Virus record (IMG/VR): IMGVR_UViG_3300045539_000120
Span: 1-64,000 of that record
Length of the DNA stretch: 64,000 nt
Origin: a virus
Direction: 5' to 3' (one strand)
In this document: positions 32,569 through 45,500 of the stretch, one piece after another
Numbering within the stretch: the first letter of the stretch is position 1
Layout of the letters: each line of letters begins with the position of its first letter
Notes under the pieces: generated by a model
The model's database searches: none
Told to the model about the DNA's origin: nothing
What the model saw: only the letters and a program-made list of their open reading frames with translations
Position numbers and translations under genes: made by a program

Positions 32569-32784
32569 TTATATTAATTTTAAGTGTTTTAATTCCTCTA
32601 TTGCATCGTCAAATGCTTCTTGCCAAGTTCGGTGTAAATACCAATTTTTAATTTCGATTCTTTCGTAGTTTCCAAAATGTGTATACTTAAATATATCATA
32701 TGCATACTTAGGGGCACTCGTCTGGTCTAAACTTATTTCTATAATGTAACCACGTTCCGTATATAATGAATCAATGGTGTACAT
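32569..32784 (-). CDS. hypothetical protein
   Basis: 71-aa ORF. Confidence 0.4.
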   Translation of the reverse strand: MYTIDSLYTERGYIIEISLDQTSAPKYAYDIFKYTHFGNYERIEIKNWYLHRTWQEAFDDAIEELKHLKLI

Positions 32785-33680
32785 TATATTACCTTGAATG
32801 TTGTTGCGTTTGTTTTTTCTTCGTACTCATTATCTGCAATATCTCTGTGAGAATTTGTAGTATAAATATGTTCAAAGTATTGTGATAATTCTTTGAATCC
32901 AGCACTGAAAATACCATGTGTAACTATTAAATAAATCTTAGCACTTATTCTTTCATTCTTGATTGCTTTAGCTAATTCTATAAAAGTTCTACCGCCGTCA
33001 CATATATCGTCAATGATTACATATTTCATACCATCGTTAGCAGAGTTAGGGTCTCCAATAGATCCTGGTAAGTTTGGCAATTCAGTTTTAAGAATTTTAC
33101 CAGTTCTCATGTCTCGCACTTTATTTGCCGTAACAATATTTTGGATTTGAAACTTCTTAGCAACGTCGAAGATTTTCTTGTATGCTCCAGCATCTGGGCT
33201 TACTAAGCAAATTCTTTCTTGAGCATCTTTTCTATTATCAATTTCAGTAAGTGCATATTTAACTACAGTGTGATTATCTAATTTTTCATAGTTATTCAAA
33301 CATGCTTCTAAAACATCTGAATGTGGATCTAATGTAATTACCGTTACAAAATTTAAGGAATTAATAATTGGACAAATTACTTGTTTCAAATAATTAACTC
33401 CACCTTCAACAAATTTACGATCTGAACGAGCACCCATAAAGTATGGAACGTAAAGAGCAATTTCTCGATTTGGTTTAATATTTCTGATTGCTGCCGTTGC
33501 ACAAATAATTAATTCTAAATCTTTAAAACTATTTAAACGTGAACTAATTTTCACAGCATCTTCATATATTAATAAGTCATTCCATTCTATAAGGTCTACT
33601 GTTTGTTGACCATCTGGAAATTGACTAATTTTGTACTTGATTTGTGATTTTTCCGGATTAACTAAATCTAATGTTATCAT
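32784..33680 (-). CDS. ribose-phosphate pyrophosphokinase-like protein (PrsA-family; possibly ADPR-PP synthetase type)
   Basis: PRTase nucleotide loop VIIDDICDGGRTF and PRS-like N-terminal domain. Confidence 0.65.
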   Translation of the reverse strand: MITLDLVNPEKSQIKYKISQFPDGQQTVDLIEWNDLLIYEDAVKISSRLNSFKDLELIICATAAIRNIKPNREIALYVPYFMGARSDRKFVEGGVNYLKQVICPIINSLNFVTVITLDPHSDVLEACLNNYEKLDNHTVVKYALTEIDNRKDAQERICLVSPDAGAYKKIFDVAKKFQIQNIVTANKVRDMRTGKILKTELPNLPGSIGDPNSANDGMKYVIIDDICDGGRTFIELAKAIKNERISAKIYLIVTHGIFSAGFKELSQYFEHIYTTNSHRDIADNEYEEKTNATTFKVI

Positions 33681-33681
33681 T

Positions 33682-33771
33682 ATGTGTTTGTTTTAATTTA
33701 TATGTAAATATAACTAAAAGTTTCTATATAAAAAAATATTTAACTACTTATTTTTAAAACTTATTAACAAT
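33682..33771 (-). promoter_or_regulatory. conserved intergenic element copy (variant)
   Basis: tatgtgtttgttttaatttatatgtaaatataactaaaag...aaaacttattaacaat. Confidence 0.45.
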
Positions 33772-34134
33772 TATTCTGCCAGTAATCTGTGTTCCATTAA
33801 GAGTATCTTGAGTTGCCCAATCAATAAGATCGCTTCGCATTATTTCATCACAGATTTCTCTTTTAATAGCAACCTTAATAGTATCTAACGCAAAATTGGT
33901 ACCTTTTGCAACATCAGCACCATACAACATTTGCATATTAGACATATTCTTTGTACTTCTGATTTCGATAGGATTTCCTACTTTAATATCGTATTTAAAT
34001 ACCTTTCCTGTTTCAAATTGGTTTGCATTCTTACCTTTCATAAAAATACTGAATGGAAATAGGTGTCTAAGGGCAGATTTAATTGCTTCAATTGTACTTT
34101 TAAAATCTACCTTTTTATTTAATATTGATTCCAT
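33754..34134 (-). CDS. hypothetical protein
   Basis: 126-aa ORF. Confidence 0.4.
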   Translation of the reverse strand: MESILNKKVDFKSTIEAIKSALRHLFPFSIFMKGKNANQFETGKVFKYDIKVGNPIEIRSTKNMSNMQMLYGADVAKGTNFALDTIKVAIKREICDEIMRSDLIDWATQDTLNGTQITGRIIVNKF

Positions 34135-34136
34135 AA

Positions 34137-34562
34137 TTAACTTCTATAAATACATTCTTTATTCTTATAAATACTTAATACACTTCCTTGGCCATGTGTG
34201 ATTGCAAATTGGTACCCATAGAAATCATAAACCATTGAAGAGAAGTTCTCTGTTAGACCATCGATTGGGTCTATTTCAACTCCTTCTTTTGATGCAATTT
34301 CCCACATTAAATTCAAGATATGCAAGGTACTATCAGTATATGTTGAGTAATGTCTCTTGTCATATTTCTTCTGCTTCTCTAATATTGTTAACATTAAGTC
34401 GTCAAATGTTGCATCATCACAAACTCCCCATCTTTCTATAATACCTTTGGCTCTTGCCTGTTCGATAGCATCCCGCTGTGCAAGTTTATTAAAGTAATTT
34501 TCCATACTTTTTTGTCCTTCGGGACTCTTCATATATTCTAATGCTTCTTTCATTTTACTCAT
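34137..34562 (-). CDS. hypothetical protein
   Basis: 141-aa ORF. Confidence 0.4.
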   Translation of the reverse strand: MSKMKEALEYMKSPEGQKSMENYFNKLAQRDAIEQARAKGIIERWGVCDDATFDDLMLTILEKQKKYDKRHYSTYTDSTLHILNLMWEIASKEGVEIDPIDGLTENFSSMVYDFYGYQFAITHGQGSVLSIYKNKECIYRS

Positions 34563-34696
34563 TATCTGTATTTTTATATGTTGGTGTTAAAAGCAATGCC
34601 CATAATGGTGTTGCTGAACTTGTGAAATAACATGCGAACCCTATTAAGCCGAAGAATGCAATGTATATTAGTGTTATTGAAAAATGTTTCATAATT

Positions 34697-35239
34697 TTAT
34701 TTTGTTGAATGTTTCCAATCTATTTTAGGGCAATATTTGTTATAAGATGCTTTAACAAATTCTACAATTATATTTGGTTGTTTTTCTGTAGGTTCGTCCC
34801 AAATTCTATAACCGTTTGCATCGTATTTAATGTTACGATTTTTCCATTTCATTTTAAGGTATTGTATTCCTTGATAGATTCCAATTGTAATTGCAGCGCC
34901 CCAACCTATAGTTCCTGTGACAAATAATTGCATATACAAAGTATCTTTACCCGGAAGACTTATGAAAATAGGTGCTAATACAGCTATCATGCATGTTAGC
35001 ATAAATAATAAGAACCATAAAATGAATCCCATACCTGCTCGTTCTCCCGTTGAATGATATCTGCTTCTATCTAATCTTTCCATGATAATCATTGGAAGAG
35101 ATAAAATAGAATAAGGTACAATAAGTAACCACATTAGGACTAATTTCCAGAAGTATGGACATAATGAATATGGCATTCTATTTGTTCCATAGAACCATCT
35201 ATATAATTGTGCTGTGTTTGAATTGATGTTTAATTTCAT
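34697..35239 (-). CDS. integral membrane protein
   Basis: about 4 TM helices. Confidence 0.4.
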   Translation of the reverse strand: MKLNINSNTAQLYRWFYGTNRMPYSLCPYFWKLVLMWLLIVPYSILSLPMIIMERLDRSRYHSTGERAGMGFILWFLLFMLTCMIAVLAPIFISLPGKDTLYMQLFVTGTIGWGAAITIGIYQGIQYLKMKWKNRNIKYDANGYRIWDEPTEKQPNIIVEFVKASYNKYCPKIDWKHSTK

Positions 35240-35243
35240 ATTT

Positions 35244-35654
35244 TTAGTTATTAATGATTACGTGAAAACCTTTGTCTGAACTTTCTATTAATTCATCTAC
35301 ATATTCCTGTGCTTCTTCAGTAGATTCGAAGTTAACTCCTAATGAATGTTTATAACTCAAGTACACTGTAACATGCGCCTTGTTATAAATACGTTTATTA
35401 TTCTCATCAATTCGATACCATTGGTAATCATCAAAGTATGATGATTGTATTCGATTCCAAGGACGGTATTCCCTTCCATCGTCATCAACTTTATTGTTCC
35501 AACCGGCAATAATTCCAGGTTTCATACCATACTTAATTCCTAAAAATGTTTTAGGGCTTGGTGGAATAGAAGGGTACCATCGGTAACTTGATTCTTTTTC
35601 GTAGGTCAATGTAATTGATTCTACTTTGTCTAATTCGAAATAATTCTTTGTCAT
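35244..35654 (-). CDS. hypothetical protein
   Basis: 136-aa ORF. Confidence 0.4.
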   Translation of the reverse strand: MTKNYFELDKVESITLTYEKESSYRWYPSIPPSPKTFLGIKYGMKPGIIAGWNNKVDDDGREYRPWNRIQSSYFDDYQWYRIDENNKRIYNKAHVTVYLSYKHSLGVNFESTEEAQEYVDELIESSDKGFHVIINN

Positions 35655-35900
35655 TTAATAAGTATTAGTGATTTGTGTTGTTAGTATATGTGTATCTCTT
35701 TCCTGTGATTCGATTCCTAATGATATGGATTTTCCATAAGCAATTGCTTTAATCTGATCATCTTTTTCATCAAATATAAATCTTACAAATCCGGCTCCTG
35801 TTGCGATTTCATTGTGACCAACCATATCTTTATGTTGGATTGCAGCCGAGAATATGATGGCACATCCATCGACTATTACGTATTTTGCTGAACTTAACAT
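35655..35900 (-). CDS. hypothetical protein
   Basis: 81-aa ORF. Confidence 0.35.
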   Translation of the reverse strand: MLSSAKYVIVDGCAIIFSAAIQHKDMVGHNEIATGAGFVRFIFDEKDDQIKAIAYGKSISLGIESQERDTHILTTQITNTY

Positions 35901-35901
35901 A

Positions 35902-36240
35902 TTACTTAACTTCTATAATGTTAGGATATGAACTCAAAAAACCAATACGGTAACCTGATGTTTTAAAGGTATATGTAGAATCTTGTTTAAGTTTACCATA
36001 CACATCGCTTGAATAAAAATTACCGCGGAAAAGATCATCTTCTAATTTGAATGTACCTTTATCGGTATAAACTAAATAGAACGATTCAATGTCTTTTCCA
36101 ACTGATTCTGTGATTCTTTCTTTACCTTCAACTTTTACGTTTATGGTATTTACGTTACCATATCCGGTAATTCCAAAACCAATCGCTCCGATAATAATTG
36201 CTACTACTAAAATTTGAATTAATCCAATTGAATTTCTCAT
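35902..36240 (-). CDS. hypothetical protein with N-terminal TM or signal anchor
   Basis: 112-aa ORF. Confidence 0.4.
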   Translation of the reverse strand: MRNSIGLIQILVVAIIIGAIGFGITGYGNVNTINVKVEGKERITESVGKDIESFYLVYTDKGTFKLEDDLFRGNFYSSDVYGKLKQDSTYTFKTSGYRIGFLSSYPNIIEVK

Positions 36241-36244
36241 AATG

Positions 36245-36335
36245 TTTTGTTTTAAATTGTTTGTTTTAATTATAATGTAAATATAACTATTAAATTTGAC
36301 CCGTGAAAACTTATTTGCAAAAAGTTATTAACAAT
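36245..36335 (-). promoter_or_regulatory. conserved intergenic element copy
   Basis: ttgttttaaattgtttgttttaattataatgtaaatataactattaaatttgacccgtgaaaacttatttgcaaaaagttattaacaat. Confidence 0.5.
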
Positions 36336-36338
36336 TTT

Positions 36339-36704
36339 TTATAGTGTTAACATTGGAAAATCTATTAATTCGATTAGTTTTATTACCTTTGAAGTATCTT
36401 GTTTTATTACTAGGTGTTGGAACCTTTCGTAGAATCTTACATCTTCTGCGTGGAATTCATGAACATACCATCCATGTGATTGCAATCTAATAATATCCTC
36501 TTTAGTAAACCATTTCCATAGGGATTCTAAACTATCAGTCGCAGATAACCATCCTACGATGCTTTCATCGAATTCCATTTGAAGTTCTCTATTTGCACAA
36601 AAATCAAATTTGCCGTGGATTAATCCTGTAAAATCTCCATCATACGCATACCATAATCCTTGTAAGGTTTCTTTATGGCATACTCTATAGTATGTTTGTT
36701 TCAT
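36339..36704 (-). CDS. hypothetical protein
   Basis: 121-aa ORF. Confidence 0.4.
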   Translation of the reverse strand: MKQTYYRVCHKETLQGLWYAYDGDFTGLIHGKFDFCANRELQMEFDESIVGWLSATDSLESLWKWFTKEDIIRLQSHGWYVHEFHAEDVRFYERFQHLVIKQDTSKVIKLIELIDFPMLTL

Positions 36705-36708
36705 ATCT

Positions 36709-36858
36709 TTAGTTTTTATAAAATGCTAATAATTCTTTTGATTTCTTGATTTGTTGTCGCAGTTCTTCCATCTTTGAGTGGGAAAGCTCTGACATTTCAT
36801 ACAATGCTTGCATCATCACTATTTGATTTTCTAACATTAACATTTCTATTCCGTTCAT
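36709..36858 (-). CDS. small hypothetical protein (49 aa)
   Basis: ATG immediately after the element copy at 36859-36950. Confidence 0.3.
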   Translation of the reverse strand: MNGIEMLMLENQIVMMQALYEMSELSHSKMEELRQQIKKSKELLAFYKN

Positions 36859-36950
36859 AATTTGTTTGTTTTAATTATAATGTAAATATAACTAATTCCC
36901 GTGACATAAAAAAATTTAATTGTACTTATTTTCAAAAAGTCTCCGGAACA
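36859..36950 (-). promoter_or_regulatory. conserved intergenic element copy (variant 3' module)
   Basis: aatttgtttgttttaattataatgtaaatataactaattcccgtgacataaaaaaatttaattgtacttattttcaaaaagtctcc. Confidence 0.45.
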
Positions 36951-37183
36951 CCTTATTTTACCCACAGGCTTAAAGACTTTAGTTATATTGTCCACGTGGA
37001 TATTTGTTTCAGATATTAAAATTATCTTTGTAAATAATATATCATGTGCAGGTTAAAATAGGCCAGGTTGCAATCCCTGTATACATTTGTTTGATTATTA
37101 ATTGTTAGATGTTATGTTTTACAATAATATTATTGATGTCCTAGAATCATCCAAATGAACCTATATAATTTACCCAGAAGACA

Positions 37184-37210
37184 TAAAAAAACCAGACTAA
37201 TTTGTCTGGT
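37184..37210 (-). terminator. intrinsic terminator
   Basis: minus strand reads CCAGAC-aaatta-GTCTGG followed by TTTTTTT; 10 nt downstream of the stop of gene 37221-37622. Confidence 0.55.
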
Positions 37211-37220
37211 TAATTTGTAT

Positions 37221-37622
37221 TTATAAACTTTTAAGGATTTCTTTACCCTCGGAATGCTCTTCACATAACGTTGATATCCAACCAGGTCCTCTGACTTGAC
37301 CAAGATTTCCACATTTTTCGCAAGTAATGTAGGACGCAGATTCTGCCAAATGAATGCGCTGCCAAATTTCTTCACTACCACTATTAATATAAAATCGCAG
37401 ACCTCCAAACTTTTCTTTAACTTGACATATTTGTTTGTCCCATCCAAGTTCTATAAGATCTTCAATTAATCTTTTAATAATACCATACCATCCCCTATGG
37501 CATGAAAAGAAACCGGCACTTTTGATTGTTGGTCTATTGGAGTAAAATCCATTTTCCAATCCACCAATGCTCTCGAGGAATTCATTCATTTCCTCATCTG
37601 TCATGTAATTATTATTCATCAT
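37221..37622 (-). CDS. hypothetical protein (Cys/His-containing)
   Basis: 133-aa ORF followed by a terminator. Confidence 0.45.
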   Translation of the reverse strand: MMNNNYMTDEEMNEFLESIGGLENGFYSNRPTIKSAGFFSCHRGWYGIIKRLIEDLIELGWDKQICQVKEKFGGLRFYINSGSEEIWQRIHLAESASYITCEKCGNLGQVRGPGWISTLCEEHSEGKEILKSL

Positions 37623-37630
37623 TTCCCATT

Positions 37631-38035
37631 TTATACAGTATGTTCAATTCTTACTCTTATACAGTTCTGTGGCAATCTATGGATATGTCGATAGTTATTT
37701 ATATAACCCATCATATTTGCGCTACCAACTGCATTTGCAGAGTGTATTACAACATCAACAACAGTAGCTCCATCCAACCATTGATTGACCAACCATTTAG
37801 TGCAATCCATTCCAGTCTTCTCTGTAATATTATCATAGTTCAATTCGTAGTTGTGATATACGTTTTTATGCCATTCAGCCATCGCGGTGTCTCCTAAGTC
37901 ATGGTCTAATGAAATTAAATCGATGTTCTCAAGTCCAATTTCAGTAACTTTTTCTACAAATTCATCGTAACTTCTAACAACAACCCAGTCTTTTTCAACT
38001 GGAGTTCTTACATCATCTAAATATACTCTAATCAT
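37631..38035 (-). CDS. hypothetical protein
   Basis: 134-aa ORF. Confidence 0.4.
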   Translation of the reverse strand: MIRVYLDDVRTPVEKDWVVVRSYDEFVEKVTEIGLENIDLISLDHDLGDTAMAEWHKNVYHNYELNYDNITEKTGMDCTKWLVNQWLDGATVVDVVIHSANAVGSANMMGYINNYRHIHRLPQNCIRVRIEHTV

Positions 38036-38318
38036 TTTTTAATTCCTTTAAATAGTTTACCAAATCTTGCAATTTATCAGCGTCCTTTGGATTAAATATA
38101 AATTCATCAAAGGCTCCATAATTACATTGATATCCAAAAATGTATTTTATTCCATGTTTAACTCGTTGCCAAAATGGTTTTTTAGTTAAATGTATATGAA
38201 AATAACATGTTGGATATTTGTGCCCTTCGACCTCATCTTCATCGTATAATATTATGAGTTGGTGGTCGGTCGAGTGACAAGCACAAATTAAAATCTCTTT
38301 ATCTTCTAGTTGTTTCAT
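38028..38318 (-). CDS. hypothetical protein
   Basis: 96-aa ORF. Confidence 0.4.
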   Translation of the reverse strand: MKQLEDKEILICACHSTDHQLIILYDEDEVEGHKYPTCYFHIHLTKKPFWQRVKHGIKYIFGYQCNYGAFDEFIFNPKDADKLQDLVNYLKELKND

Positions 38319-38347
38319 ATCTATTATATGTACAAATGTGATTTTGT

Positions 38348-39088
38348 TTATTTTTTCTCAAATGTAGGTTTTAACCACATACCATCTTTAAAAACAAGAT
38401 TTAAAAATCCTGGAATAACTTGGTCAATATCTACCAATAATCTAAGACTTCTTGGAGTATCGTGTGCCATCATTTTAAATATTTCTTCTCTAATTCTTTG
38501 GCCGCTTACGGTTTGCTCAAGTTTCTTCAGGATGTTTGGTTGTTTCATTGCCTCCCAAATATCATCACTCATAATGAAATCCTTTGTAACTGTAAATCTC
38601 AATGCTCTTAATATTCTTAATGGGTCATCCATTAGGGTAACTTTAGCATCCATTGGAGTACGTAAAATACCAACCTTTAAATCTTCAATACCTCCAAAAA
38701 GATCAATAATGTTTCCATCAATATCTTCTGCTAAGGCATTTAAGGTAAAATCTCTACGAAGTAAATCATCTTCTAAAGTACCTAATTCTAAGATTGGTCT
38801 ACGAGTTCCTTTCGTGTAACCTATTTCCTTACGAGCCATTACAAAATCTGCAACCAGTCCTGCAAATTGATGGTCCTTTGGAAACTTGGCGCGAATTGTA
38901 AAACAATCTGGAGTACTTAAGAATATTTCAAATCCTTGGTCCGTCATCCAGTTCGTCATGATTTGAAAACCATCTTCAACTGTAAATCCTTTGGTATCTT
39001 CTAATACGAATGTGAAATCTATATCTTTGGAATCTACACCAAGGAATTTATCCCTGATGCAACCTCCTACTTTAAATATTTTTGCCAT
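38348..39088 (-). CDS. tRNA nucleotidyltransferase (CCA-adding enzyme / poly(A)-polymerase head-domain family), minimal form
   Basis: VGGCIRDKFLGVDSKDIDF (GGxVRD...DxD) and RRDFTLNALA motifs; start placed at MAKIFKVGG. Confidence 0.7.
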   Translation of the reverse strand: MAKIFKVGGCIRDKFLGVDSKDIDFTFVLEDTKGFTVEDGFQIMTNWMTDQGFEIFLSTPDCFTIRAKFPKDHQFAGLVADFVMARKEIGYTKGTRRPILELGTLEDDLLRRDFTLNALAEDIDGNIIDLFGGIEDLKVGILRTPMDAKVTLMDDPLRILRALRFTVTKDFIMSDDIWEAMKQPNILKKLEQTVSGQRIREEIFKMMAHDTPRSLRLLVDIDQVIPGFLNLVFKDGMWLKPTFEKK

Positions 39089-39095
39089 TTTTATC

Positions 39096-39449
39096 TTAAT
39101 TAAATAAGGTACTTGGTGCACCTACGTTATACATTAAACTTGCGAAGAATTTAAAACCTTTATATGAAGTTCCATCCGCACTTCCAATTGCATTCATTAA
39201 ATCATTACCTACAAATGCCTGAACAAATCCACCTCCTTGATAACCAACCCCCCATTTTGTACAAAGAATCGATGTACCTATTTGGATAATATGATTCTTT
39301 TCAGATTCTGGTAATTCAGATAAATTTAACCATTGAGCATTTTCAGCAAAATAATTAGTTACTACTTCTTTTACGATTTCAATTTGGTCTACTGTGTTCA
39401 TATTGTTTATGTTTTTAATTATAATGTAAATATAACTAAAAAAAGCCAA
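39096..39449 (-). CDS. hypothetical protein
   Basis: 117-aa ORF. Confidence 0.4.
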   Translation of the reverse strand: MAFFSYIYIIIKNINNMNTVDQIEIVKEVVTNYFAENAQWLNLSELPESEKNHIIQIGTSILCTKWGVGYQGGGFVQAFVGNDLMNAIGSADGTSYKGFKFFASLMYNVGAPSTLFN

Positions 39450-39494
39450 ACAAGAAAACGTTTGGCTAATTATTTTATAAAAGTTATTAACAAT
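39401..39494 (-). promoter_or_regulatory. conserved intergenic element copy split by an embedded intrinsic terminator
   Basis: gtttttaattataatgtaaatataact + aaaaaaaGCCAAACaagaaaacGTTTGGC + taattattttataaaagttattaacaat. Confidence 0.5.
39438..39467 (-). terminator. intrinsic terminator inside an element copy
   Basis: minus strand GCCAAAC-gttttctt-GTTTGGC followed by TTTTTTT. Confidence 0.55.
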
Positions 39495-39512
39495 GTGTAA
39501 TTACTAAATAAT

Positions 39513-40394
39513 TTATTGGACATATATTGTCTGTGTATCTTTTTTCCAATATGTAGTTGATATTGGGTTGCCAACATTATTAGTACTTGCTCTATATGAA
39601 TTTACTAAATTGACATTATTTACTTTAATCTCATATAAGTTTGGATTATTAGAGGTTGAACATGTTCTAGGTACACCATTATTTGCAGTATTTTTAATAT
39701 TTAAAGTGCGTAAATCGCAACCATCTAACACTATTACATTTAATATTGGATTTTCAGATAAATCTAAATGTTGTATAGGATTTCCTCCATTTGGATTATT
39801 AAAACCTACGCCTAACCAAAGATCAGTTAATCGTGGGCAATTACTTACGTCTAGACTTGTAATTCTATTTACCCATAAATATATTCTTTCTAGTTTAGTA
39901 TTATATGTTAAATCCAAGCCTATTAATCCTTTTGTTTTTCCATATTCATATGTAGGGTCAGATATCCGTTGGCTATTATTTTGAAAATCAAGTTCTACTA
40001 ATTCGGTATTTTGTGATAAATCCAAGATTGTCAATGGGCATTCGCTTAATCCTAATAATTTTAACTTTTTTAAACTTCTTAAATTAATAGAAGTAAAATC
40101 ATTATCCCATAGTAAAAGAGTTTCCAAGTTTATAAAACTTTCAATTCCAGAAATATTTTCAATTCTCAAATGTTCAAGTCTAATAGATCTTAATAAAGAT
40201 ATATTAGAAGTTAGTACCTTTCCATCTAAAAGATTATCATGTCCTAGCGATATCAATGCTGTTTCAAATTTTAGATCTGGAATTAAAGTCCATTCCGGAA
40301 GTGCAGGAGGAGTAATTATGTATGGCTCCTCGGTAATGCTAGGAGTTGAACATGACACAATTGTAATTGCTAATAGTAACAGTAATTTTTTCAT
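39513..40394 (-). CDS. leucine-rich-repeat lipoprotein
   Basis: lipoprotein signal MKKLLLLLAITIVSCS followed by repeated LxxLxLxxN-type units. Confidence 0.5.
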   Translation of the reverse strand: MKKLLLLLAITIVSCSTPSITEEPYIITPPALPEWTLIPDLKFETALISLGHDNLLDGKVLTSNISLLRSIRLEHLRIENISGIESFINLETLLLWDNDFTSINLRSLKKLKLLGLSECPLTILDLSQNTELVELDFQNNSQRISDPTYEYGKTKGLIGLDLTYNTKLERIYLWVNRITSLDVSNCPRLTDLWLGVGFNNPNGGNPIQHLDLSENPILNVIVLDGCDLRTLNIKNTANNGVPRTCSTSNNPNLYEIKVNNVNLVNSYRASTNNVGNPISTTYWKKDTQTIYVQ

Positions 40395-40466
40395 AATTTT
40401 AATTTTGATTAATAATATTCAAATATAACTAAATAAAATGACATAAAAAAACATTGTTAATAACTT

Positions 40467-40979
40467 TTATTTTCCAATAAAAAGATAATCTTTCCACTCT
40501 TCTGGAATATGGTCAATAGTTTTCATTAACATCAAATAATGTGGTCTCTTTGGATTTGGAATTTCTTTACCATATTCCTCAAGGCTAAGATCTGCCTTTT
40601 CACCATTACATTTTCTGCATGCTGTAACAAGATTCTCCCAACTGTTTGGTCCACCCTTACTTTGTGGAATAACATGGTCAAGTGTTAGTACCTTTCTATT
40701 TGTTTGTCCACAATAAACACATGTCCATTCATCTCTTTTAAATACATTATCTCTGGTTAATGGAACACTCACATGTCTAGTATTTACATACTTAGGAACT
40801 CTAATGATAGATGGTTTGTGTAAAATAACAGTAGGATCGCACATATTAAATGTTGCATCATGGTTTTGAACAATACTAGCGTTTCCCTTATACACAATGA
40901 CAAAGGATCTTAAGCTACTAATAATACTACGAGGAATATAGCTTGAATCTAACACTAATGTTTTTGAATATTTGTCCAT
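40467..40979 (-). CDS. HNH endonuclease
   Basis: CVYCGQ...LTLDHVIPQSKGG...WENLVTACRKCN. Confidence 0.75.
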   Translation of the reverse strand: MDKYSKTLVLDSSYIPRSIISSLRSFVIVYKGNASIVQNHDATFNMCDPTVILHKPSIIRVPKYVNTRHVSVPLTRDNVFKRDEWTCVYCGQTNRKVLTLDHVIPQSKGGPNSWENLVTACRKCNGEKADLSLEEYGKEIPNPKRPHYLMLMKTIDHIPEEWKDYLFIGK

Positions 40980-41095
40980 GTTTTTATTTAATAGTATAAC
41001 ATATTGGTAATAATTTGGGTGTAAGGACGGTACCGCCCCGTCTTCTCAAGATTCACAGTCTTGCACTTCACTAAAAAGCTTCGAACACCATATAA

Positions 41096-41152
41096 TTTGG
41101 GAAACGGTAGGATTCGAACCTACGAAGACCTCCGTTGTCTCATTTCCCCTTT
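41096..41152 (-). tRNA. tRNA-like minihelix (~54 nt: acceptor stem + 4-bp hairpin + canonical T-arm, no D-arm)
   Basis: minus strand GGGAAAT-GAGACAACGGAGGTCTTC-GTAGGTTCGAATCCTAC-C-GTTTCCC-A; 7-bp acceptor with one G-U. Confidence 0.3.
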
Positions 41153-41514
41153 GTACCGACTACAAGTTACGCTCTTGTCTGAAAATACTTATGAGATATT
41201 TTCGATCCTAGATCAAGTCGGCAATTATACTCCATACCCATCACGTTAAGGCTGATTATGGGCGACGCAACCTACGGTCAACTTTCGTTATGGAGTTTGC
41301 GGAAAGCAGAGGTATCGATCCCCATACCATTAAAGGTACGATTCGCTTAGCAAGCGGTCCTGAATCCTATTCAGTTTACTTTCCATTTAGAGAGACTTTG
41401 GGTCTTTCAGGGTTACTGGTTAAATGCAATGAGTGAGCTCTTCCTACTACTAACCCTTTTTCAGAAATTAATACACTCTACCTTTTAACTACAGCTTAAA
41501 CTGTCTCTCTATTG

Positions 41515-41594
41515 TACCCAGGGAGAGACTCGAACTCTCAAGCTTTCGCCACGGCTTCTAAGACCGCTGTGTCTACCAATTCCACCACCAAGGC
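41515..41594 (-). tRNA. tRNA-Leu(TAG), type II
   Basis: T-arm GAGAGTTCGAGTCTCTC, acceptor GCCTTGG/CCTGGGT (one mismatch), anticodon loop CTTAGAA, variable hairpin GCGAAAGC. Confidence 0.6.
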
Positions 41595-41691
41595 ATAAAG
41601 CCAATCCCGTAGATTGGCCGCTCAACTTAAGGTATTGAGTTTGCAAGAATAAATCTCTGACCAGGTCATGCGTCCTTTGGGCGCCGACAGT

Positions 41692-41763
41692 GACCCCGGT
41701 GGGACTCGAACCCACGACTCCCTGATTAAAAGTCAGGTGCTCTACCAACTGAGCTACGAAGTC
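41692..41763 (-). tRNA. tRNA-Lys(TTT)
   Basis: acceptor GACTTCG/CGGGGTC, D-arm GCTCAGTTGGTAGAGC, anticodon loop CTTTTAA. Confidence 0.8.
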
Positions 41764-41820
41764 TTGCCTTTTTTAGAGTTTTTATAGAACTCAAGGATAG
41801 TACAACCTATAAACTAAAGT

Positions 41821-41892
41821 AGCGGGTGAGGGACTCGAACCCCCGACCTTAAGCTTATGAGGCTCACGAGATACCAACTTCTACCAACCCGC
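41821..41892 (-). tRNA. tRNA-Met(CAT)
   Basis: acceptor GCGGGTT/CACCCGC, anticodon loop CTCATAA. Confidence 0.6.
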
Positions 41893-41903
41893 AATATATC
41901 TTG

Positions 41904-41975
41904 TAGTCAATAAAGGACTCGAACCCTTATTCCCGAGTTCGTAGCCCGGTGTTCTATCCATTGAACTAATCGACT
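41904..41975 (-). tRNA. tRNA-Arg(ACG)
   Basis: acceptor AGTCGAT/ATTGACT, anticodon stem CCGGG/CTCGG, loop CTACGAA. Confidence 0.75.
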
Positions 41976-41977
41976 AA

Positions 41978-42054
41978 TGGTGGTCCATTCAGGACTCGAA
42001 CCTGAGACCTACTGATTATGAGTCAGGCGCTCTAACCAACTGAGCTAAAAGACC
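41978..42054 (-). tRNA. tRNA-Met or tRNA-Ile2(CAT), CCA encoded
   Basis: D-arm GCTCAGTTGGTTAGAGC, anticodon loop CTCATAA, 3' ACCA. Confidence 0.65.
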
Positions 42055-42059
42055 ATTAA

Positions 42060-42470
42060 ATAATAAGTTGTTCCATACCGAACTATTAGGAACTATTAGG
42101 GCTTCTCGGACGAGGTGCACAACCCATAACGGCTATGATATGTTCTCTGTTACTTGGCTCCACCTACATGGATTAATCAGGAATCGAACCCACCTAATCG
42201 ATATATGCCTATATCAATGTTCACAGCATATCAACTTATCATTTTGCACAAGCAGAAGGGGTCGAACCTTCATCATCGGTTTTGGAGACCGGTATGCTAC
42301 CATTGCACCATACTTGTATTTTGTGGGAGATTATGGAATCGAACCATACCCTCTTACAGAACGATTTTACAGACCGCTTACATCACCAGATGCTGAAACC
42401 TCCCAAATTTAACTACCACCTGACTCCTTTCGAGCAGTGGAAACTCGTATCATTCAATTTTGGTAGTTAG
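42060..42470 (-). tRNA. tract of tRNA-like elements and fragments with aberrant arms
   Basis: several minus-strand T-loop signatures (RC of ggaatcgaacc, ggtcgaacc, ggaatcgaacc) without canonical full cloverleafs on hand-folding. Confidence 0.3.
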
Positions 42471-42471
42471 C

Positions 42472-42545
42472 TCCCCAGCTAGGACTCGAACCTAGGACCC
42501 CCTGATTAACAGTCAGGTGCTCTAACCAACTGAGCTACTGAGGAA
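42472..42545 (-). tRNA. tRNA-Asn(GTT)
   Basis: acceptor TCCTCAG/CTGGGGA, anticodon loop CTGTTAA, T-arm CTAGGTTCGAGTCCTAG. Confidence 0.8.
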
Positions 42546-42780
42546 TATTGTTGACTAATAAGGATTTGAACCTTAATCCTGTGTCCGCCCTCAGTCACTT
42601 CCGTACTTACTAACTTCTACTGTGCACCATACACCATAATCATTCCGAATGTTTCGAACCATTCAGTCTTAAGATTAATTACTTCTTAAGATTTGTTGCG
42701 ATTAGAGGAATCGAACCTCTCAGTGGTATATCTACCAAATCGTCTCATGAGAACGAACCTACACCGATATCGCAATTTAG
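42546..42780 (-). tRNA. tract of tRNA-like elements
   Basis: includes acceptor+T-arm minihelix TGACTGA...TAAGGTTCAAATCCTTA-TTAGTCA; a perfect 8-bp palindromic hairpin TCTTAAGA-agtaattaa-TCTTAAGA; further T-loop-like motifs. Confidence 0.3.
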
Positions 42781-42782
42781 TG

Positions 42783-42856
42783 TCTTTACATGGGATTCGA
42801 ACCCATACTCTTCGGGCTCAGTGCCCGCGTTCCAAACCAAGTTAAACTACGTAAAG
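42783..42856 (-). tRNA. tRNA-Gln(CTG)-like (4-bp anticodon stem)
   Basis: acceptor CTTTACG/TGTAAAG, anticodon hairpin CGGG-CACTGAG-CCCG, T-arm TGGGTTCGAATCCCA. Confidence 0.4.
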
Positions 42857-42954
42857 CAATCAATTAAAATTACAGAAATTAGTGTCGACAAATTTCTTTA
42901 AGCTATATGTAATCTTAATCGTTAGGAAGATATTGCTGATCAGGCATCTTCTTT

Positions 42955-43062
42955 GTAATTATGATTGGATTCGAACCAATTTCAGCTTTACAATAAAGAG
43001 TATATTTCAACTCAACCTTTGTGAGGTGCCGCCAACCAATGGCCTCATAATCATTTGTGGAT
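42955..43062 (-). tRNA. tRNA-like element with long extra arm and no readable standard anticodon
   Basis: acceptor GATTATG/CATAATT (G-U at bp 1) and T-arm ATTGGTTCGAATCCAAT. Confidence 0.25.
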
Positions 43063-43547
43063 AGAAACCAGACCTATCCTAGAGCTGCAGCTCTGTTATA
43101 ACTTATGCATCATCCTCAATGCTTCAACCCTTTGGCTATTACGGGTGTGGACTCGAACCACATTTTTCAGTTACCTATGCTTTTTCAAACTTGGTTTTAG
43201 TTGCTTTCCTTGCGCAAGGTTCATAACTAATTTCCAGTATCACCACGAGGAGGTGTTTGATTGATACCGCTACGCTTCGTTGGTACTTGCCGTTTCTTAA
43301 GTCGACACTTTCCCCGTTGCACGTTTTATTTAAGTGTACTTCCCTACTAGCGTCCTTGAAGCCAACACTTTTTAATTTGAGCTGCCTTATTACTAAGGTT
43401 TCGGATCGCATCTTTGATTAGGTAGCGAACCTATCATTAACGTCTCAAAGTAATTGTTAGTCTTTTCCTTACCTCTTAATAATTACACTGCCCGTCAGAT
43501 GTTACTGTCTGATGCTTACCAATCATACTGGGGTAATTATTAAATTG

Positions 43548-43619
43548 TAACGCCACGGAGAATCGAACTCCGATTTTTAGGATGAAAACCTAATGTCCTA
43601 ACCGTTAGACGATGGCGTC
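43548..43619 (-). tRNA. tRNA-Glu(TTC)
   Basis: acceptor GACGCCA/TGGCGTT, anticodon stem TTAGG/CCTAA, loop TTTTCAT, T-arm CGGAGTTCGATTCTCCG. Confidence 0.7.
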
Positions 43620-43651
43620 ATTTAAATTATTATCAAGATGTCAAATAACGT

Positions 43652-43727
43652 TTGTTCTAATTTGTTATGTAAATATAACTATAATATTTGAACCATGAAA
43701 ACTTTTTTCCAAAAGTTATTAACAATT
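43652..43727 (-). promoter_or_regulatory. conserved intergenic element copy heading a tRNA operon
   Basis: tgtcaaataacgtttgttctaatttgttatgtaaatataactataatatttgaaccatgaaaacttttttccaaaagttattaacaat; nearest downstream minus-strand feature is tRNA-Glu, no ATG. Confidence 0.5.
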
Positions 43728-43731
43728 TTTG

Positions 43732-43803
43732 AGCGACTAGAGAGAATCGAACTCTCATCTTCAGATTGGAAGTCTGAAGTAATGACCATTATACGATAGT
43801 CGC
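43732..43803 (-). tRNA. tRNA-Gly(TCC)
   Basis: perfect acceptor GCGACTA/TAGTCGC, anticodon loop CTTCCAA. Confidence 0.8.
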
Positions 43804-43812
43804 ATTGTATTG

Positions 43813-43901
43813 TGCAAGAAGCTGGGATCGAACCAGCGGCACGTCCATGTTCCTTCCAACCGAAGTACTGGGGATTGCTCTACCAACTGAGCTATTCTTG
43901 C
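43813..43901 (-). tRNA. tRNA-like gene with canonical acceptor, D- and T-arms but expanded, unfoldable anticodon region (possible Tyr-GTA type or pseudogene)
   Basis: acceptor GCAAGAA/TTCTTGC, D-arm GCTCAGTTGGTAGAGC, T-arm GCTGGTTCGATCCCAGC; 39 nt between D- and T-arms contains CAGTACT. Confidence 0.35.
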
Positions 43902-44044
43902 ATTTGGGTAGGTCAGAGGCCTTCTGCCTACCGAGACCTCGTCGTTGAACTTCTGGAAGCCAGAGCGTACCGAGACACTTTTTAAATAAAAATCAGGATC
44001 GGTTTGTTTTTAGTGCTCTACCAACTGAGCTACTTGCTTTTCAT

Positions 44045-44115
44045 CAAGATACACAAGGTCGGATTCGAACCGACGACCACTGCTTTAAAAGAGCTGTTTG
44101 TTACTGTTTGCTGTA
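44045..44115 (-). tRNA. tRNA-like element (T-arm GTCGGTTCGAATCCGAC)
   Basis: T-arm plus CTTTTAA-like loop, but stems not canonical. Confidence 0.25.
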
Positions 44116-44136
44116 ACGATCCTTATTATTTTATTG

Positions 44137-44209
44137 AGCTTCTGACCGGGTTCGAACCGATGACATCTTCATTACAAGTGAAGTGCTCTACCAACTAAGC
44201 TACAGAAGC
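44137..44209 (-). tRNA. tRNA-Thr(TGT)
   Basis: perfect acceptor GCTTCTG/CAGAAGC, anticodon stem CTTCA/TGAAG, loop CTTGTAA. Confidence 0.8.
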
Positions 44210-44271
44210 AAATTAGAGTTTTCGTATTATTAAAGCCAATACCCGGAATAATCTCTCAACCAAAACACTAG

Positions 44272-44342
44272 TCCCCTCAGGTGGAATCGAACCACCGCCA
44301 ATTGCATGTAAAACAATTACGCTACCATTACGCCATGTGGGG
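44272..44342 (-). tRNA. tRNA-Val(TAC)
   Basis: acceptor CCCCACA/TGAGGGG (one A-A mismatch), anticodon stem ATTGT/GCAAT, loop TTTACAT. Confidence 0.6.
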
Positions 44343-44401
44343 AATTCTAATTCTACGCTCACAATATGTAGTTCTATGAATTAGTAACAGTCTCGTCTGT
44401 G

Positions 44402-44472
44402 TCTAATAGGCAGGATTCGAACCTGCGTACTCCTCAGTCCAAGTGAGGCATGTGACCTAGCTTCGCTACTAG
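44402..44472 (-). tRNA. tRNA-Pro(TGG)-like
   Basis: acceptor CTAGTAG/CTATTAG, perfect anticodon stem CCTCA/TGAGG with loop CTTGGAC; D-arm atypical. Confidence 0.45.
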
Positions 44473-44483
44473 AAATTTAATTT

Positions 44484-44562
44484 GTTGCCTATGAAGGTAC
44501 TGACCCTCCTCCGATGCTGTCAAAGAGCATTGTACCACCTTTATACGAATAGGCAAAAAGTT
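44484..44562 (-). tRNA. tRNA-Gln(TTG)-like with aberrant T-loop (probable pseudogene)
   Basis: acceptor GCCTATT/CATAGGC, anticodon hairpin ATGCT-CTTTGAC-AGCAT; T-loop lacks the TTCGA motif. Confidence 0.3.
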
Positions 44563-44566
44563 TCAG

Positions 44567-44639
44567 TGGACCCTACAGGAATCGAACCTGTTCCTCTAGT
44601 TCTTCAGACTAGCGTACGCACCAGCTATACCAAAGGTCC
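44567..44639 (-). tRNA. tRNA-Phe(GAA)
   Basis: acceptor GGACCTT/AGGGTCC, anticodon stem CTAGT/ACTAG, loop CTGAAGA. Confidence 0.75.
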
Positions 44640-44655
44640 ATCTATTATTACCAAT

Positions 44656-44750
44656 ATGTCAAATAACGTTTGTTTTAATTTCTTATACAAATATAACTAT
44701 TACATTTGAAATAAAAAAACTTTTAATGTTAAATTTATGTTAACATTTTT
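44656..44750 (-). promoter_or_regulatory. degenerate element copy heading a tRNA operon
   Basis: atgtcaaataacgtttgttttaatttcttatacaaatataactattacatttga...; shares an extra 5' segment (tgtcaaataacgtttgtt) with the 43652 copy. Confidence 0.4.
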
Positions 44751-44751
44751 G

Positions 44752-45413: not shown

Positions 45414-45416
45414 TTG

Positions 45417-45490: not shown

Positions 45491-45500
45491 TAATTGTTAA

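What the first reader, a model, noticed from the sequence alone, without database searches (positions are those of the whole stretch)
38348..39088. Minimal CCA-adding enzyme in a phage whose tRNA genes mostly lack encoded CCA
The protein has the GGxVRD...DxD and RRDFTLNALA motifs of class II tRNA nucleotidyltransferases at a compact ~245 aa (head and neck only). Of the tRNAs I folded, only Asp(GTC) and the second Met/Ile(CAT) encode CCA. The rest need CCA addition or repair, and a phage-supplied enzyme would protect against host 3'-end attack.
Basis: partly seen in the sequence, partly recalled or inferred. Interest (0 to 1): 0.55.

Follow-up and report, generated by a model that had tools for sequence, protein, structure and literature searches.

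The report
Compact phage tRNA CCA-adding enzyme
A large marine phage carries a half-size version of the enzyme that builds the CCA end of tRNAs, next to its own CCA-less tRNA genes and RNA-repair genes; the family is already annotated in many phages, so this is a new member of a known kind, though no biochemical study of the half-size form turned up.

Summary
Window 38348..39088 (-) encodes a 246-aa protein with every class II tRNA-nucleotidyltransferase core motif. These are GGxxRD/DxD, a third Asp, a full-length flexible loop, RRDFTLNALA, motif C, DDPLR (EDxxR type) and motif E. The predicted structure (pLDDT 96) covers only the head and neck of solved CCA-adding enzymes.

The short form is not a fragment. 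It matches PHROG 24229 end to end, and about 120 of the top 150 cluster representatives are 225-280 aa. Named phages already carry it as "tRNA nucleotidyltransferase", for example Cellulophaga phi17:2 gp032 and Synechococcus S-CBWM1.

All 24 keep C74, and Bacteroidota host tRNA genes show the same pattern (150 of 162), so this is a habit of the presumed host phylum (Bacteroidota) rather than a phage peculiarity.

The window also holds Thg1, RNA ligase, a kinase, phosphoesterases and a cREC gene two ORFs downstream. This fits a tRNA maturation and repair role. CCA specificity, and how tRNA is held without body and tail, are inferred, not shown.

Verdict: new member of a known kind, moderate interest. 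A tRNA-tail-cleaving immune nuclease (Cas12a3) was described recently, which makes the counter-defence idea testable.

The parts
38348..39088 (-). CDS of the compact class II tRNA nucleotidyltransferase (246 aa, head + neck + 18-residue C-terminal cap; stop TAA 38348-38350)
   Evidence: ORF list; Pfam PF01743 E 5e-18; PHROG 24229 E 2.5e-57; AF2 pLDDT 96.1; fold matches to class II CCA/A-adding enzymes
39017..39067 (-). Motif A, GGCIRDKFLGVDSKDID (residues 8-24): Gly-Gly turn and the two metal-binding Asp (D22, D24)
   Evidence: G8 G9 R12 D22 are invariant and D24 is at least 90% conserved in 63 compact homologues; coordinates checked
38846..38848 (-). D81, the third catalytic carboxylate (in ADFVMAR)
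   Evidence: Invariant in alignment A1. It aligns with the corresponding strand of solved CCA-adding enzymes.
38729..38833 (-). Flexible-loop region and motif B (residues 86-120, RKEIGYTKGTRRPILELGTLEDDLLRRDFTLNALA); RRD reads the ribose
   Evidence: R112 D113 N117 are invariant. The loop aligns with the Bacillus stearothermophilus CCA-adding enzyme with only a one-residue length difference, so there is no deletion relative to that enzyme. The role of the loop in A76 addition comes from PMC3925840.
38666..38713 (-). Motif C (residues 126-141, NIIDLFGGIEDLKVGI)
   Evidence: D129 and G133 invariant
38591..38632 (-). Motif D (residues 153-166, MDDPLRILRALRFT): the Asp/Arg amino-acid template that reads CTP and ATP (EDxxR type; family consensus EDPLR)
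   Evidence: D155 R158 R161 R164 invariant; the role of the Asp/Arg pair comes from PMC3925840
38468..38509 (-). Motif E (residues 194-207, VSGQRIREEIFKMM)
   Evidence: E202 is invariant and R198 is at least 90% conserved; aligned to motif E of solved enzymes
38363..38383 (-). Family-specific C-terminal motif GMWLKPT (residues 236-242), followed by a short basic tail. It sits where cellular enzymes continue into the body domain.
   Evidence: Consensus G[LM]WLxPT in A1, with L239 at least 90% conserved. The last 18 residues have pI 9.5, against 5.3 for the whole protein.
38028..38318 (-). 96-aa ORF between the nucleotidyltransferase and cREC; no family hit
   Evidence: No Pfam hit. Homologues lie just downstream of the NTase in 17 of 83 related loci.
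37631..38035 (-). cREC (cyclic-phosphate-processing receiver domain) protein, a predicted 2',3'-cyclic end or cADPR phosphoesterase
   Evidence: Pfam PF20274 E 2.8e-22. Same arrangement in locus L004. Within 3 kb of the NTase in 15 of 83 related loci. Predicted function from PMC7824862.
41514..45490 (-). Main tRNA array, 18 genes, starting 2.4 kb upstream of the enzyme gene. 17 end in discriminator-C and then non-C; one, Met(CAT) 41978..42054, has CCA.
   Evidence: ARAGORN; Rfam; 3' ends
15110..15995 (-). Second tRNA cluster (Asp with CCA; Ile, Leu and Ala with C74 only)
29761..30564 (-). Thg1-like 3'-5' nucleotidyltransferase (tRNA 5'-end repair or G-1 addition)
   Evidence: Pfam PF04446 E 5.8e-30
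2025..3149 (-). RNA ligase (PHA02142 OB domain + RNA_ligase)
   Evidence: Pfam. Its homologue lies directly upstream of the NTase, after Metallophos and AAA_33 genes, in locus L001.
4518..4913 (-). AAA_33 P-loop kinase (polynucleotide-kinase-like)
   Evidence: Pfam PF13671 E 1.7e-13
6678..7364 (-). HAD phosphatase of the 'Swiss Army Knife' RNA-repair type
   Evidence: Pfam PF18143 E 1.8e-19
26210..26917 (-). Metallophosphoesterase
   Evidence: Pfam PF00149 E 6e-17

Best explanation
The gene encodes an active, stand-alone class II CTP/ATP:tRNA nucleotidyltransferase made of the catalytic head and the nucleotide-selecting neck, capped by a short conserved C-terminal motif.

Proposed mechanism:
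- D22, D24 and D81 hold the two metal ions.
- The RRD motif reads the ribose.
- The D155/R158 pair of the EDxxR-type motif acts as the protein template for CTP and then ATP.
- The full-length flexible loop permits the final A76 step.

During infection the enzyme completes or rebuilds the 3' end of the phage's roughly two dozen CCA-less tRNAs, and probably of host tRNAs as well. It would add C75-A76 if processing leaves the encoded C74, or C74-C75-A76 if the cut falls after the discriminator.

It works alongside a phage RNA end-healing and sealing kit: cREC, metallophosphoesterases, HAD phosphatases, a kinase, RNA ligase and Thg1. That kit keeps tRNAs usable when host nucleases attack them.

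Shown here: family membership, intact catalytic and template motifs, head-plus-neck architecture, conservation of the short form, CCA-less tRNA genes, and the gene context. Inferred: the CCA product, tRNA as the substrate, and the counter-defence role.
For: Family and motifs:
- Pfam head domain E 5e-18.
- The best NCBIfam hits are CCA tRNA nucleotidyltransferase equivalogs.
- PHROG 24229 at E 2.5e-57.
- A profile of 63 compact homologues hits solved CCA-adding enzymes at E 6e-43 to 8e-35, and E. coli PAP at 2e-29.
- All motif A-E residues are invariant or nearly so.
- The loop shows no deletion relative to the B. stearothermophilus CCA enzyme.

Architecture:
- The AF2 model has pLDDT 96.1.
- It matches class II structures with a query-normalised TM-score (TMq) of about 0.7 but a target-normalised one (TMt) of 0.36-0.5.
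- The short form is conserved to its last residues. 117 of 150 representatives are 225-280 aa and most align to both ends of the query.

Copy number: there is one copy in the window and one in the complete phi17:2 genome, so no CC-adding plus A-adding pair.

Substrates at hand:
- 22 of 24 tRNA genes lack C75-A76.
- Relatives show 107 of 121 tRNAs with C74 only.
- In S-CBWM1 the compact gene sits directly upstream of a 36-tRNA array in which 19 lack even C74. Full CCA synthesis would be needed there.

Repair context:
- cREC lies two genes downstream.
- Thg1, RNA ligase, a kinase, HAD and Metallophos genes are all in the window.
- L001 has the order Metallophos, kinase, RNA ligase, NTase.
- At least one repair gene lies within 10 kb in 57 of 83 close loci.
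- The same reading was given for jumbo phages in PMC7824862.
Against: - No biochemical data exist for any compact member that I could find.
[quoted passage not shown] This protein lacks both domains and is acidic (pI 5.3), so tRNA affinity and correct termination after A76 are open questions.
- Sequence scores do not cleanly separate CCA-adding from A-adding or poly(A) activity.
- The presumed host phylum does not template CCA either. It must have its own enzyme, so the need for a phage copy is not obvious.
- No neighbouring gene is strictly conserved with the enzyme.
Confidence: 0.7

Rival explanations
1. It has only a partial activity: A-adding or CA-adding. It tops up ends that already carry C74 or C74-C75 and leaves full synthesis to the host enzyme.
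For: All 24 tRNA genes here, and 107 of 121 in close relatives, already encode C74. The enzyme lacks the domains that reposition tRNA during the addition steps. Class II enzymes with split activities exist (S. pombe cca1/cca2, A. aeolicus).
Against: Compact homologues also occur in phages whose tRNAs mostly lack C74 (S-CBWM1: 19 of 36). C74 is a Bacteroidota host trait and is not tied to the enzyme. [quoted passage not shown]
Confidence: 0.15
2. It needs a partner. The core is catalytic, but another phage or host protein, or a dimer of the enzyme itself, supplies tRNA binding in place of the missing body and tail.
For: The protein is acidic and lacks the known tRNA-binding domains. Small conserved ORFs of unknown function flank it, such as the 96-aa ORF at 38028..38318.
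Against: No neighbour is conserved across the family: the best is present in 17-25 of 83 loci. The C-terminal cap is conserved and confidently modelled as part of one compact fold.
Confidence: 0.15
3. It is a poly(A) polymerase or another untargeted RNA-tailing enzyme that marks host or phage RNAs, not a tRNA enzyme.
For: The same Pfam head domain is shared with PcnB. NCBIfam pcnB scores 83.5 bits, close to the CCA models at 87-103 bits. Without the body and tail, chain-length control might be lost.
Against: The family profile prefers CCA-adding structures by more than 10 orders of magnitude in E-value. Many loci, though not all, place the gene next to tRNA arrays and tRNA or RNA repair genes. 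The pcnB cut-off is 305 bits and the PAP C-terminal RNA-binding region is missing.
Confidence: 0.07
4. It is an inactive remnant of a full-length gene.
For: It is about half the length of cellular enzymes.
Against: All catalytic residues are invariant. The length and C-terminus are conserved across at least 117 clusters at 50% identity and thousands of metagenomic copies.
Confidence: 0.02

Closest known systems
PHROG 24229 / GenBank-annotated compact phage 'tRNA nucleotidyltransferase' (e.g. Cellulophaga phage phi17:2 gp032, Synechococcus phage S-CBWM1 gp018, Microbacterium phage Cece gp237)
   Same: Same length (about 245 aa), same motifs, end-to-end alignment at 34-47% identity, large tRNA-rich phage genomes, and frequent RNA-repair or NAD-salvage neighbours.
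   Different: Only 46% identical to the best deposited phage. The window has no nucleotide-level match to deposited phages. It belongs to an uncultured aquatic clade whose contigs reach 477 kb.
Cellular class II CCA-adding enzymes (B. stearothermophilus 1MIV, T. maritima 3H37, Planococcus 6IBP, Arabidopsis 9KMA, human TRNT1)
   Same: The head and neck fold and motifs A-E, including the flexible loop and the EDxxR-type nucleotide template.
   Different: [quoted passage not shown] It ends in a family-specific G[LM]WLxPT cap and is acidic overall.
E. coli multifunctional CCA addition/repair protein (NCBIfam NF008137)
   Same: Nucleotidyltransferase core. The functional logic pairs CCA synthesis with 3'-end healing phosphoesterase activity (the HD-domain activities are from my own knowledge of Yakunin et al. 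2004).
   Different: Here any end-healing activities would be supplied in trans by separate genes (cREC, Metallophos, HAD) rather than by a fused HD domain. The score is 87.5 bits against a cut-off of 451.
Longer phage tRNA nucleotidyltransferases (PHROG 2244, 392-position profile)
   Same: Same head and neck, matched at E 2e-41.
   Different: The query covers only profile positions 3-197 of 392, so those enzymes keep a C-terminal half that this one lacks.

Membership tests
Class II tRNA nucleotidyltransferase / poly(A) polymerase superfamily (Pfam PF01743 head) | Motif A: GGxxRD followed by DxD metal-binding carboxylates | tested here: met
   GGCIRD...DID at residues 8-24. G8 G9 R12 D22 are invariant and D24 is at least 90% conserved. 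PF01743 scores 66 bits against a cut-off of 23.
Class II tRNA nucleotidyltransferase / poly(A) polymerase superfamily (Pfam PF01743 head) | Third catalytic carboxylate on the adjacent strand | tested here: met
   D81 is invariant in 63 homologues
Class II tRNA nucleotidyltransferase / poly(A) polymerase superfamily (Pfam PF01743 head) | Motif B (RRD) for ribose recognition | tested here: met
   RRDFTLNALA at residues 111-120; R112 D113 N117 invariant
Class II tRNA nucleotidyltransferase / poly(A) polymerase superfamily (Pfam PF01743 head) | Motif D (EDxxR) amino-acid template for CTP/ATP, in the neck | tested here: met
   DDPLR in this protein and EDPLR in the family consensus; D155 and R158 invariant
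Class II CCA-adding enzyme (canonical cellular form) | Four-domain 'seahorse' architecture: head, neck, body, tail | tested here: not met
   The model and alignments cover only about the first 220-300 residues of 340-580-residue structures. TMq is about 0.7 and TMt 0.36-0.5. NCBIfam equivalog scores of 88-103 bits fall far below cut-offs of 290-451.
Class II CCA-adding enzyme (canonical cellular form) | Full-length flexible loop needed for A76 addition | tested here: met
   Residues 86-105 align to B. stearothermophilus CCA with a one-residue length difference. The loop's role comes from PMC3925840. It was not compared residue by residue with a CC-adding enzyme.
Class II CCA-adding enzyme (canonical cellular form) | Adds exactly C-C-A to tRNA 3' ends | not testable with these tools
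   Needs an in vitro assay or complementation
PHROG 24229 (compact phage tRNA nucleotidyltransferase) | End-to-end match to the 245-position profile | tested here: met
   E 2.5e-57; residues 3-219 matched to profile positions 5-217. Length and C-terminal motif are shared with 63 representatives.
Bacterial poly(A) polymerase PcnB | Score above the NCBIfam pcnB cut-off; C-terminal RNA-binding region | tested here: not met
   TIGR01942 scores 83.5 bits against 305.65, and NF008634 scores 52.5 against 702. No sequence continues beyond the neck.
A-adding tRNA nucleotidyltransferase | Equivalog score; C-terminal region reported to inhibit CC addition | tested here: not met
   NF041569 scores 49.6 bits against a cut-off of 1440. 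The body and tail are absent.

The most novel reading that the evidence does not exclude
A 246-aa head-plus-neck protein performs complete and accurately terminated CCA synthesis on tRNA with no body or tail domain. If so, elbow anchoring is dispensable for class II specificity. Phages would then deploy this minimal enzyme to rebuild tRNA tails removed by tail-cleaving defences such as Cas12a3, for which the Cas12a3 paper says viral means of resistance are 'yet unknown'.
Probability: 0.3. Interest if true: 0.6.

Novelty: new member of a known kind. Interest (0 to 1): 0.4.

Why it matters
The annotation itself is routine, because the family is named in PHROGs and in many GenBank phage records. 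Two points give it some value.

1. The compact head-plus-neck form is a large, conserved viral clade, with thousands of metagenomic copies, and I found no biochemical or structural study of it. Current models of class II CCA addition assign tRNA binding to the missing body and tail. A working minimal enzyme would therefore test those models and would give a very small CCA-adding tool.

2. tRNA 3'-tail cleavage has just been shown to be a bacterial anti-phage strategy. The nuclease is Cas12a3, and one orthologue comes from a Bacteroidetes bacterium (PMC12851939). No viral counter-measure is known. A phage CCA-adding enzyme sitting among tRNA-repair genes is an obvious, directly testable candidate.

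The side observation also matters. Bacteroidota and their phages template exactly C74 but not C75-A76, which points to a phylum-specific 3'-processing rule. I did not find that rule described.

Tried and rejected
1. Is the C74-only pattern a special adaptation to the compact enzyme, making it a 'CA-adding' system? Rejected. A scan for the Bacteroidota 16S probe site CF319a returned 120 rRNA loci whose tRNA genes show the same pattern: 150 of 162 with C74 only, 12 with CCA, none without C74. The Synechococcus phage S-CBWM1 has the compact enzyme, yet most of its tRNAs lack C74.

2. Is there an obligate adjacent partner gene that replaces the body and tail? None is conserved. The best neighbours occur in 17-25 of 83 loci.

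3. Do domain fusions give functional hints? Eight long proteins (478-2190 aa) contain the module. Pfam found only GNAT, topoisomerase I and phage L5 gp82 domains beside it, with no RNA-related domains; I take these to be merged gene calls (not checked).

4. A nucleotide search of the window against deposited phages found no match.

5. The search for related loci with the single protein P0155 found nothing. It worked once an alignment was used as the query.

6. Literature searches for biochemistry of a compact or truncated phage CCA-adding enzyme found none. Searches for a description of C74-only templating also found none.

7. Is there a second class II enzyme that would form a CC-adding plus A-adding pair? 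None in the window or in the complete phi17:2 genome.

8. Model coordinates are not exposed, so I could not examine the surface charge or the packing of the C-terminal cap.
Full report
**The feature.** Window 38348..39088 on the minus strand is an ORF of 246 codons beginning MAKIFKVGG and ending in TAA. A longer GTG start at 39121 is possible. It would overlap the upstream ORF, and the 63 diverse homologues aligned all start within about a dozen residues of the ATG. The ATG is preceded by the A-rich stretch taagataaaaATG.

GGCIRDKFLGVDSKDID occupies residues 8-24 and RRDFTLNALA occupies residues 111-120.

**Family assignment.**
- Pfam places residues 5-143 in the PolyA_pol head domain (E 5e-18, 66 bits against a cut-off of 23).
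- Residues 171-220 match the neck model PolyA_pol_RNAbd only weakly (E 1e-3, below cut-off).
- The best NCBIfam hits are CCA tRNA nucleotidyltransferase equivalogs at 88-103 bits. PcnB follows at 83.5 bits. All fall far below their cut-offs because the models are 400-470 positions long and only the first half is matched.
- PHROGs gives the clearest answer. PHROG 24229, a 245-position profile named tRNA nucleotidyltransferase, matches at E 2.5e-57 over nearly its whole length. PHROG 2244, a 392-position profile, matches only through its first 197 positions.

**The compact form is a family trait.** A tblastn search of deposited phages found 485 records, with the best at 46% identity. The compact gene is already annotated as tRNA nucleotidyltransferase in several of them. 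Examples are Cellulophaga phages phi17:2 and phi4:1, Microbacterium phages such as Cece, Arthrobacter phages, and Synechococcus phages B3, B23 and S-CBWM1.

- The large protein collection holds 6231 relatives at E <= 1e-10. The top 120 are 78-100% identical and 231-257 aa long, many from marine and other aquatic metagenomes, on contigs up to 477 kb.
- In the exhaustive search of 50%-identity representatives, 117 of the best 150 are 225-280 aa, and most of these align to the query from about residue 1-7 to about residue 240-246.
- An alignment of 63 such representatives (36-57% identical to the query) has these invariant residues: G8, G9, R12, D22, D81, G103, D108, R112, D113, N117, D129, G133, D155, R158, R161, R164 and E202.
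- D24, R111, F114, T115, R198 and L239 are conserved in at least 90% of the sequences. There is also a family-specific C-terminal motif, G[LM]WLxPT.

These positions correspond to motifs A-E of class II enzymes. They comprise the two metal-binding Asp plus a third carboxylate, the RRD ribose sensor, motif C, the EDxxR-type Asp/Arg template that reads CTP and ATP, and motif E (roles as reviewed in PMC3925840). The stretch between D81 and RRD, which contains the flexible loop needed for A76 addition, aligns with the B. stearothermophilus CCA-adding enzyme with a one-residue length difference.

**Structure.** AlphaFold2, given the 63-sequence alignment, produced a model with mean pLDDT 96.1 and pTM 0.90. 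Foldseek against the PDB returned only class II enzymes at the top, at E 8e-17 to 5e-10:
- CCA-adding enzymes: Arabidopsis, Planococcus, B. stearothermophilus, T. maritima and human.
- The A. aeolicus A-adding and CC-adding enzymes.
- E. coli PAP.

About 240 columns aligned in each case. TM-scores were about 0.7 when normalised on the query but 0.36-0.5 when normalised on the targets. Sequence alignments end at about residue 220-300 of chains 390-580 residues long. The protein is therefore head plus neck plus an 18-residue cap. [quoted passage not shown]

The protein is also acidic. Its pI is 5.3 overall: 4.7 for the head, 6.5 for the neck and 9.5 for the C-terminal cap.

**The tRNA genes.** ARAGORN finds 24 tRNA genes, all on the same strand as the enzyme. 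Eighteen of them form an array at 41514..45490, which starts 2.4 kb upstream of the enzyme gene. Rfam confirms 22 of the 24.

All 24 nevertheless have C directly after the discriminator. Rfam's tRNA model ends at the discriminator and ARAGORN's calls run one base further in the 22 CCA-less genes, so the two tools agree on the register. Chance gives about 1e-19.

The same pattern holds in relatives:

| Source | tRNAs | C74 only | CCA | Other |
|---|---|---|---|---|
| L001 | 12 | 11 | 1 | 0 |
| L003 | 19 | 17 | 1 | 1 |
| 80 IMG/VR loci (enzyme 61-89% identical) | 121 | 107 | 11 | 3 odd |
| Cellulophaga phage phi17:2 (ARAGORN calls) | 23 | 22 | 1 | 0 |

In those 80 loci, position 75 is A or T in 94% of the CCA-less genes.

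I first asked whether this marked a special substrate for a reduced enzyme. It does not.
- A scan of bacterial genomes for the Cytophaga-Flavobacteria 16S probe site CF319a returned 120 rRNA loci, almost all from Bacteroidota. Their 162 tRNA genes, mostly Ile and Ala, split into 150 with C74 only, 12 with CCA and none without C74.
- Synechococcus phage S-CBWM1 has a 248-aa compact enzyme immediately upstream of a 36-tRNA array. That array has 19 tRNAs without C74, 14 with C74 only and 3 with CCA.
- More distant compact-enzyme phages are mixed: 123 with C74 only, 42 with CCA and 5 with neither.

C74-only templating is thus a trait of the Bacteroidota and of phages that match them. Two further points fit a Bacteroidota host, probably a flavobacterium: the lipoprotein-type signal on the LRR protein at 39513..40394, and the affinity to Cellulophaga phages. 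That host assignment is an inference.

Ardell and Hou reported that Bacteroidetes/Chlorobi tRNA genes mostly do not template CCA (PMC5143459). That paper does not use the terms 'C74', 'position 74' or 'partial', so it does not appear to discuss the retained C74. The consequence for the finding is that the host must possess its own essential CCA-adding enzyme. The phage copy supplements or replaces it rather than filling a gap.

**Genomic context.** The window is phage. It carries a tail sheath (59666..62599) and a T4-type large terminase (62654..63955), and nearly all ORFs are on one strand. It is rich in RNA-end repair and NAD-related genes:

| Gene | Window coordinates |
|---|---|
| cREC (two ORFs downstream of the enzyme) | 37631..38035 |
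| Thg1 | 29761..30564 |
| NADAR | 30896..31369 |
| NAMPT | 27994..29493 |
| PRPP synthetase-like | 32784..33680 |
| Metallophosphoesterases | 26210..26917 and 23402..24046 |
| HAD 'Swiss Army Knife' phosphatase | 6678..7364 |
| Probable HAD_PNKP | 52348..52800 |
| AAA_33 kinase | 4518..4913 |
| RNA ligase | 2025..3149 |

In a relative with an 80% identical enzyme, the gene order is Metallophos, AAA_33 kinase, RNA ligase, nucleotidyltransferase (L001). Another relative repeats the NTase, small ORFs, cREC arrangement (L004). S-CBWM1 has a metallophosphoesterase directly upstream.

Across 83 close loci, 57 have at least one recognisable repair gene within 10 kb and 37 have one within 3 kb. Across 80 distant loci, 28 have one within 10 kb; that is a lower bound, because plain tblastn was used. 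No single neighbour is conserved throughout.

This matches the description by Iyer and colleagues of jumbo-phage RNA repair, which lists CCA-adding enzymes, Thg1, RNA ligases and cREC together (PMC7824862).

**Most likely function.** The protein is an active class II tRNA nucleotidyltransferase whose most probable product is CCA. Four points support this:
- The catalytic and template residues are intact.
- The flexible loop is full length.
- No second enzyme is present to form a CC-adding plus A-adding pair, neither in the window nor in the complete phi17:2 genome.
- In S-CBWM1, many tRNAs would need all three nucleotides.

[quoted passage not shown] 2011, cited in PMC3925840). An enzyme without that region is therefore not expected to be restricted to A. 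Whether it terminates correctly and binds tRNA well without the body and tail is unknown.

The rivals are a partial activity, dependence on a partner or on dimerisation, untargeted tailing, and inactivity. They are listed with their tests in the Rival explanations section.

**Counter-defence idea.** Cas12a3 nucleases, including one from a Bacteroidetes bacterium, cleave tRNA 3' tails 2-4 nucleotides from the end after RNA target recognition. [quoted passage not shown] A CCA-adding enzyme could restore tails cut within CCA. It could not restore a lost discriminator, so only partial rescue would be expected.

**Verdict.** The protein is a new, divergent member of an already annotated phage family and not a new kind of system.

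Interest is moderate at 0.4. The compact architecture is uncharacterised biochemically as far as I could find, and it now has a testable link to tRNA-tail-targeting immunity.

Noticed in passing
window tRNA genes (3527..54757, - strand); loci L001, L003, L007, L009-L088; Bacteroidota rRNA loci L089-L208: Nearly all CCA-less tRNA genes of this phage, its relatives and Bacteroidota genomes encode exactly one C after the discriminator and then a non-C. Position 75 is C in about 2% of cases. The counts are 22/22 here, 107/110 in related phages and 150/150 in Bacteroidota Ile/Ala genes. This suggests a phylum-specific 3'-processing or RNase P rule. I found no description of it.
   Followed up: yes
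window 29761..30564 (-), with NADAR 30896..31369, NAMPT 27994..29493, nucleoside 2-deoxyribosyltransferase-like 27252..27749, PRPP synthetase-like 32784..33680: A Thg1-like 3'-5' nucleotidyltransferase (tRNA 5'-end repair) sits inside an NAD-salvage / ADP-ribose-processing gene block. Together with the CCA enzyme, the phage could repair both ends of a tRNA.
   Followed up: partly
window 37631..38035 (-): A cREC (cyclic-phosphate-processing receiver) domain protein lies two genes downstream of the nucleotidyltransferase, and this arrangement recurs in some relatives. It would be a trans-acting counterpart of the phosphoesterase domain that is fused to the E. coli CCA enzyme.
   Followed up: partly
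window 40467..40979 (-): An HNH endonuclease gene lies between the enzyme region and the tRNA array. Endonuclease genes also interrupt the tRNA arrays of S-CBWM1 (L289) and L003, which suggests homing-endonuclease traffic around phage tRNA clusters.
   Followed up: no
window 39513..40394 (-): A leucine-rich-repeat protein carries a lipoprotein-type signal (MKKLLLLLAITIVSCS). It is an unusual cargo next to the enzyme gene and a hint to a Bacteroidota host.
   Followed up: no
window 42323..42404, 42782..42857, 3527..3613, 43812..43901, 41819..41893 (all -): Several tRNA calls look odd. Tyr(GTA) 42323 and Gln(CTG) 42782 are called by ARAGORN but do not reach the Rfam gathering score. Pro(TGG) 3527 is 87 nt and Tyr(GTA) 43812 is 90 nt. 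Met(CAT) 41819 has a U1-U72 mismatch and a GCGGG start, which resembles an initiator tRNA.
   Followed up: no
L001 592..959 (+): A related phage contig (270 kb) encodes a tmRNA (tag AVELSTMTFEDAMSFVGADYAVAA) inside its tRNA array, upstream of the repair cassette and the enzyme.
   Followed up: no
proteins P0215, P0218, P0232, P0238 (1433-2190 aa), P0201, P0208, P0227: The compact module also appears inside very long predicted proteins, beside GNAT and topoisomerase I domains. These are probably merged gene calls, for example in recoded phages or giant viruses. This was not checked.
   Followed up: partly
window 46689..48646 (-): Two adjacent ATP-grasp-like proteins (weak hits to D-Ala-D-Ala ligase C-terminal and sugar-transfer ATP-grasp domains) lie just beyond the tRNA array. 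Their function is unknown.
   Followed up: no
window 38348..39088 (-): The enzyme is acidic overall (pI 5.3). Only its last 18 residues are basic (pI 9.5). This is unexpected for a protein that must hold tRNA without extra binding domains.
   Followed up: partly
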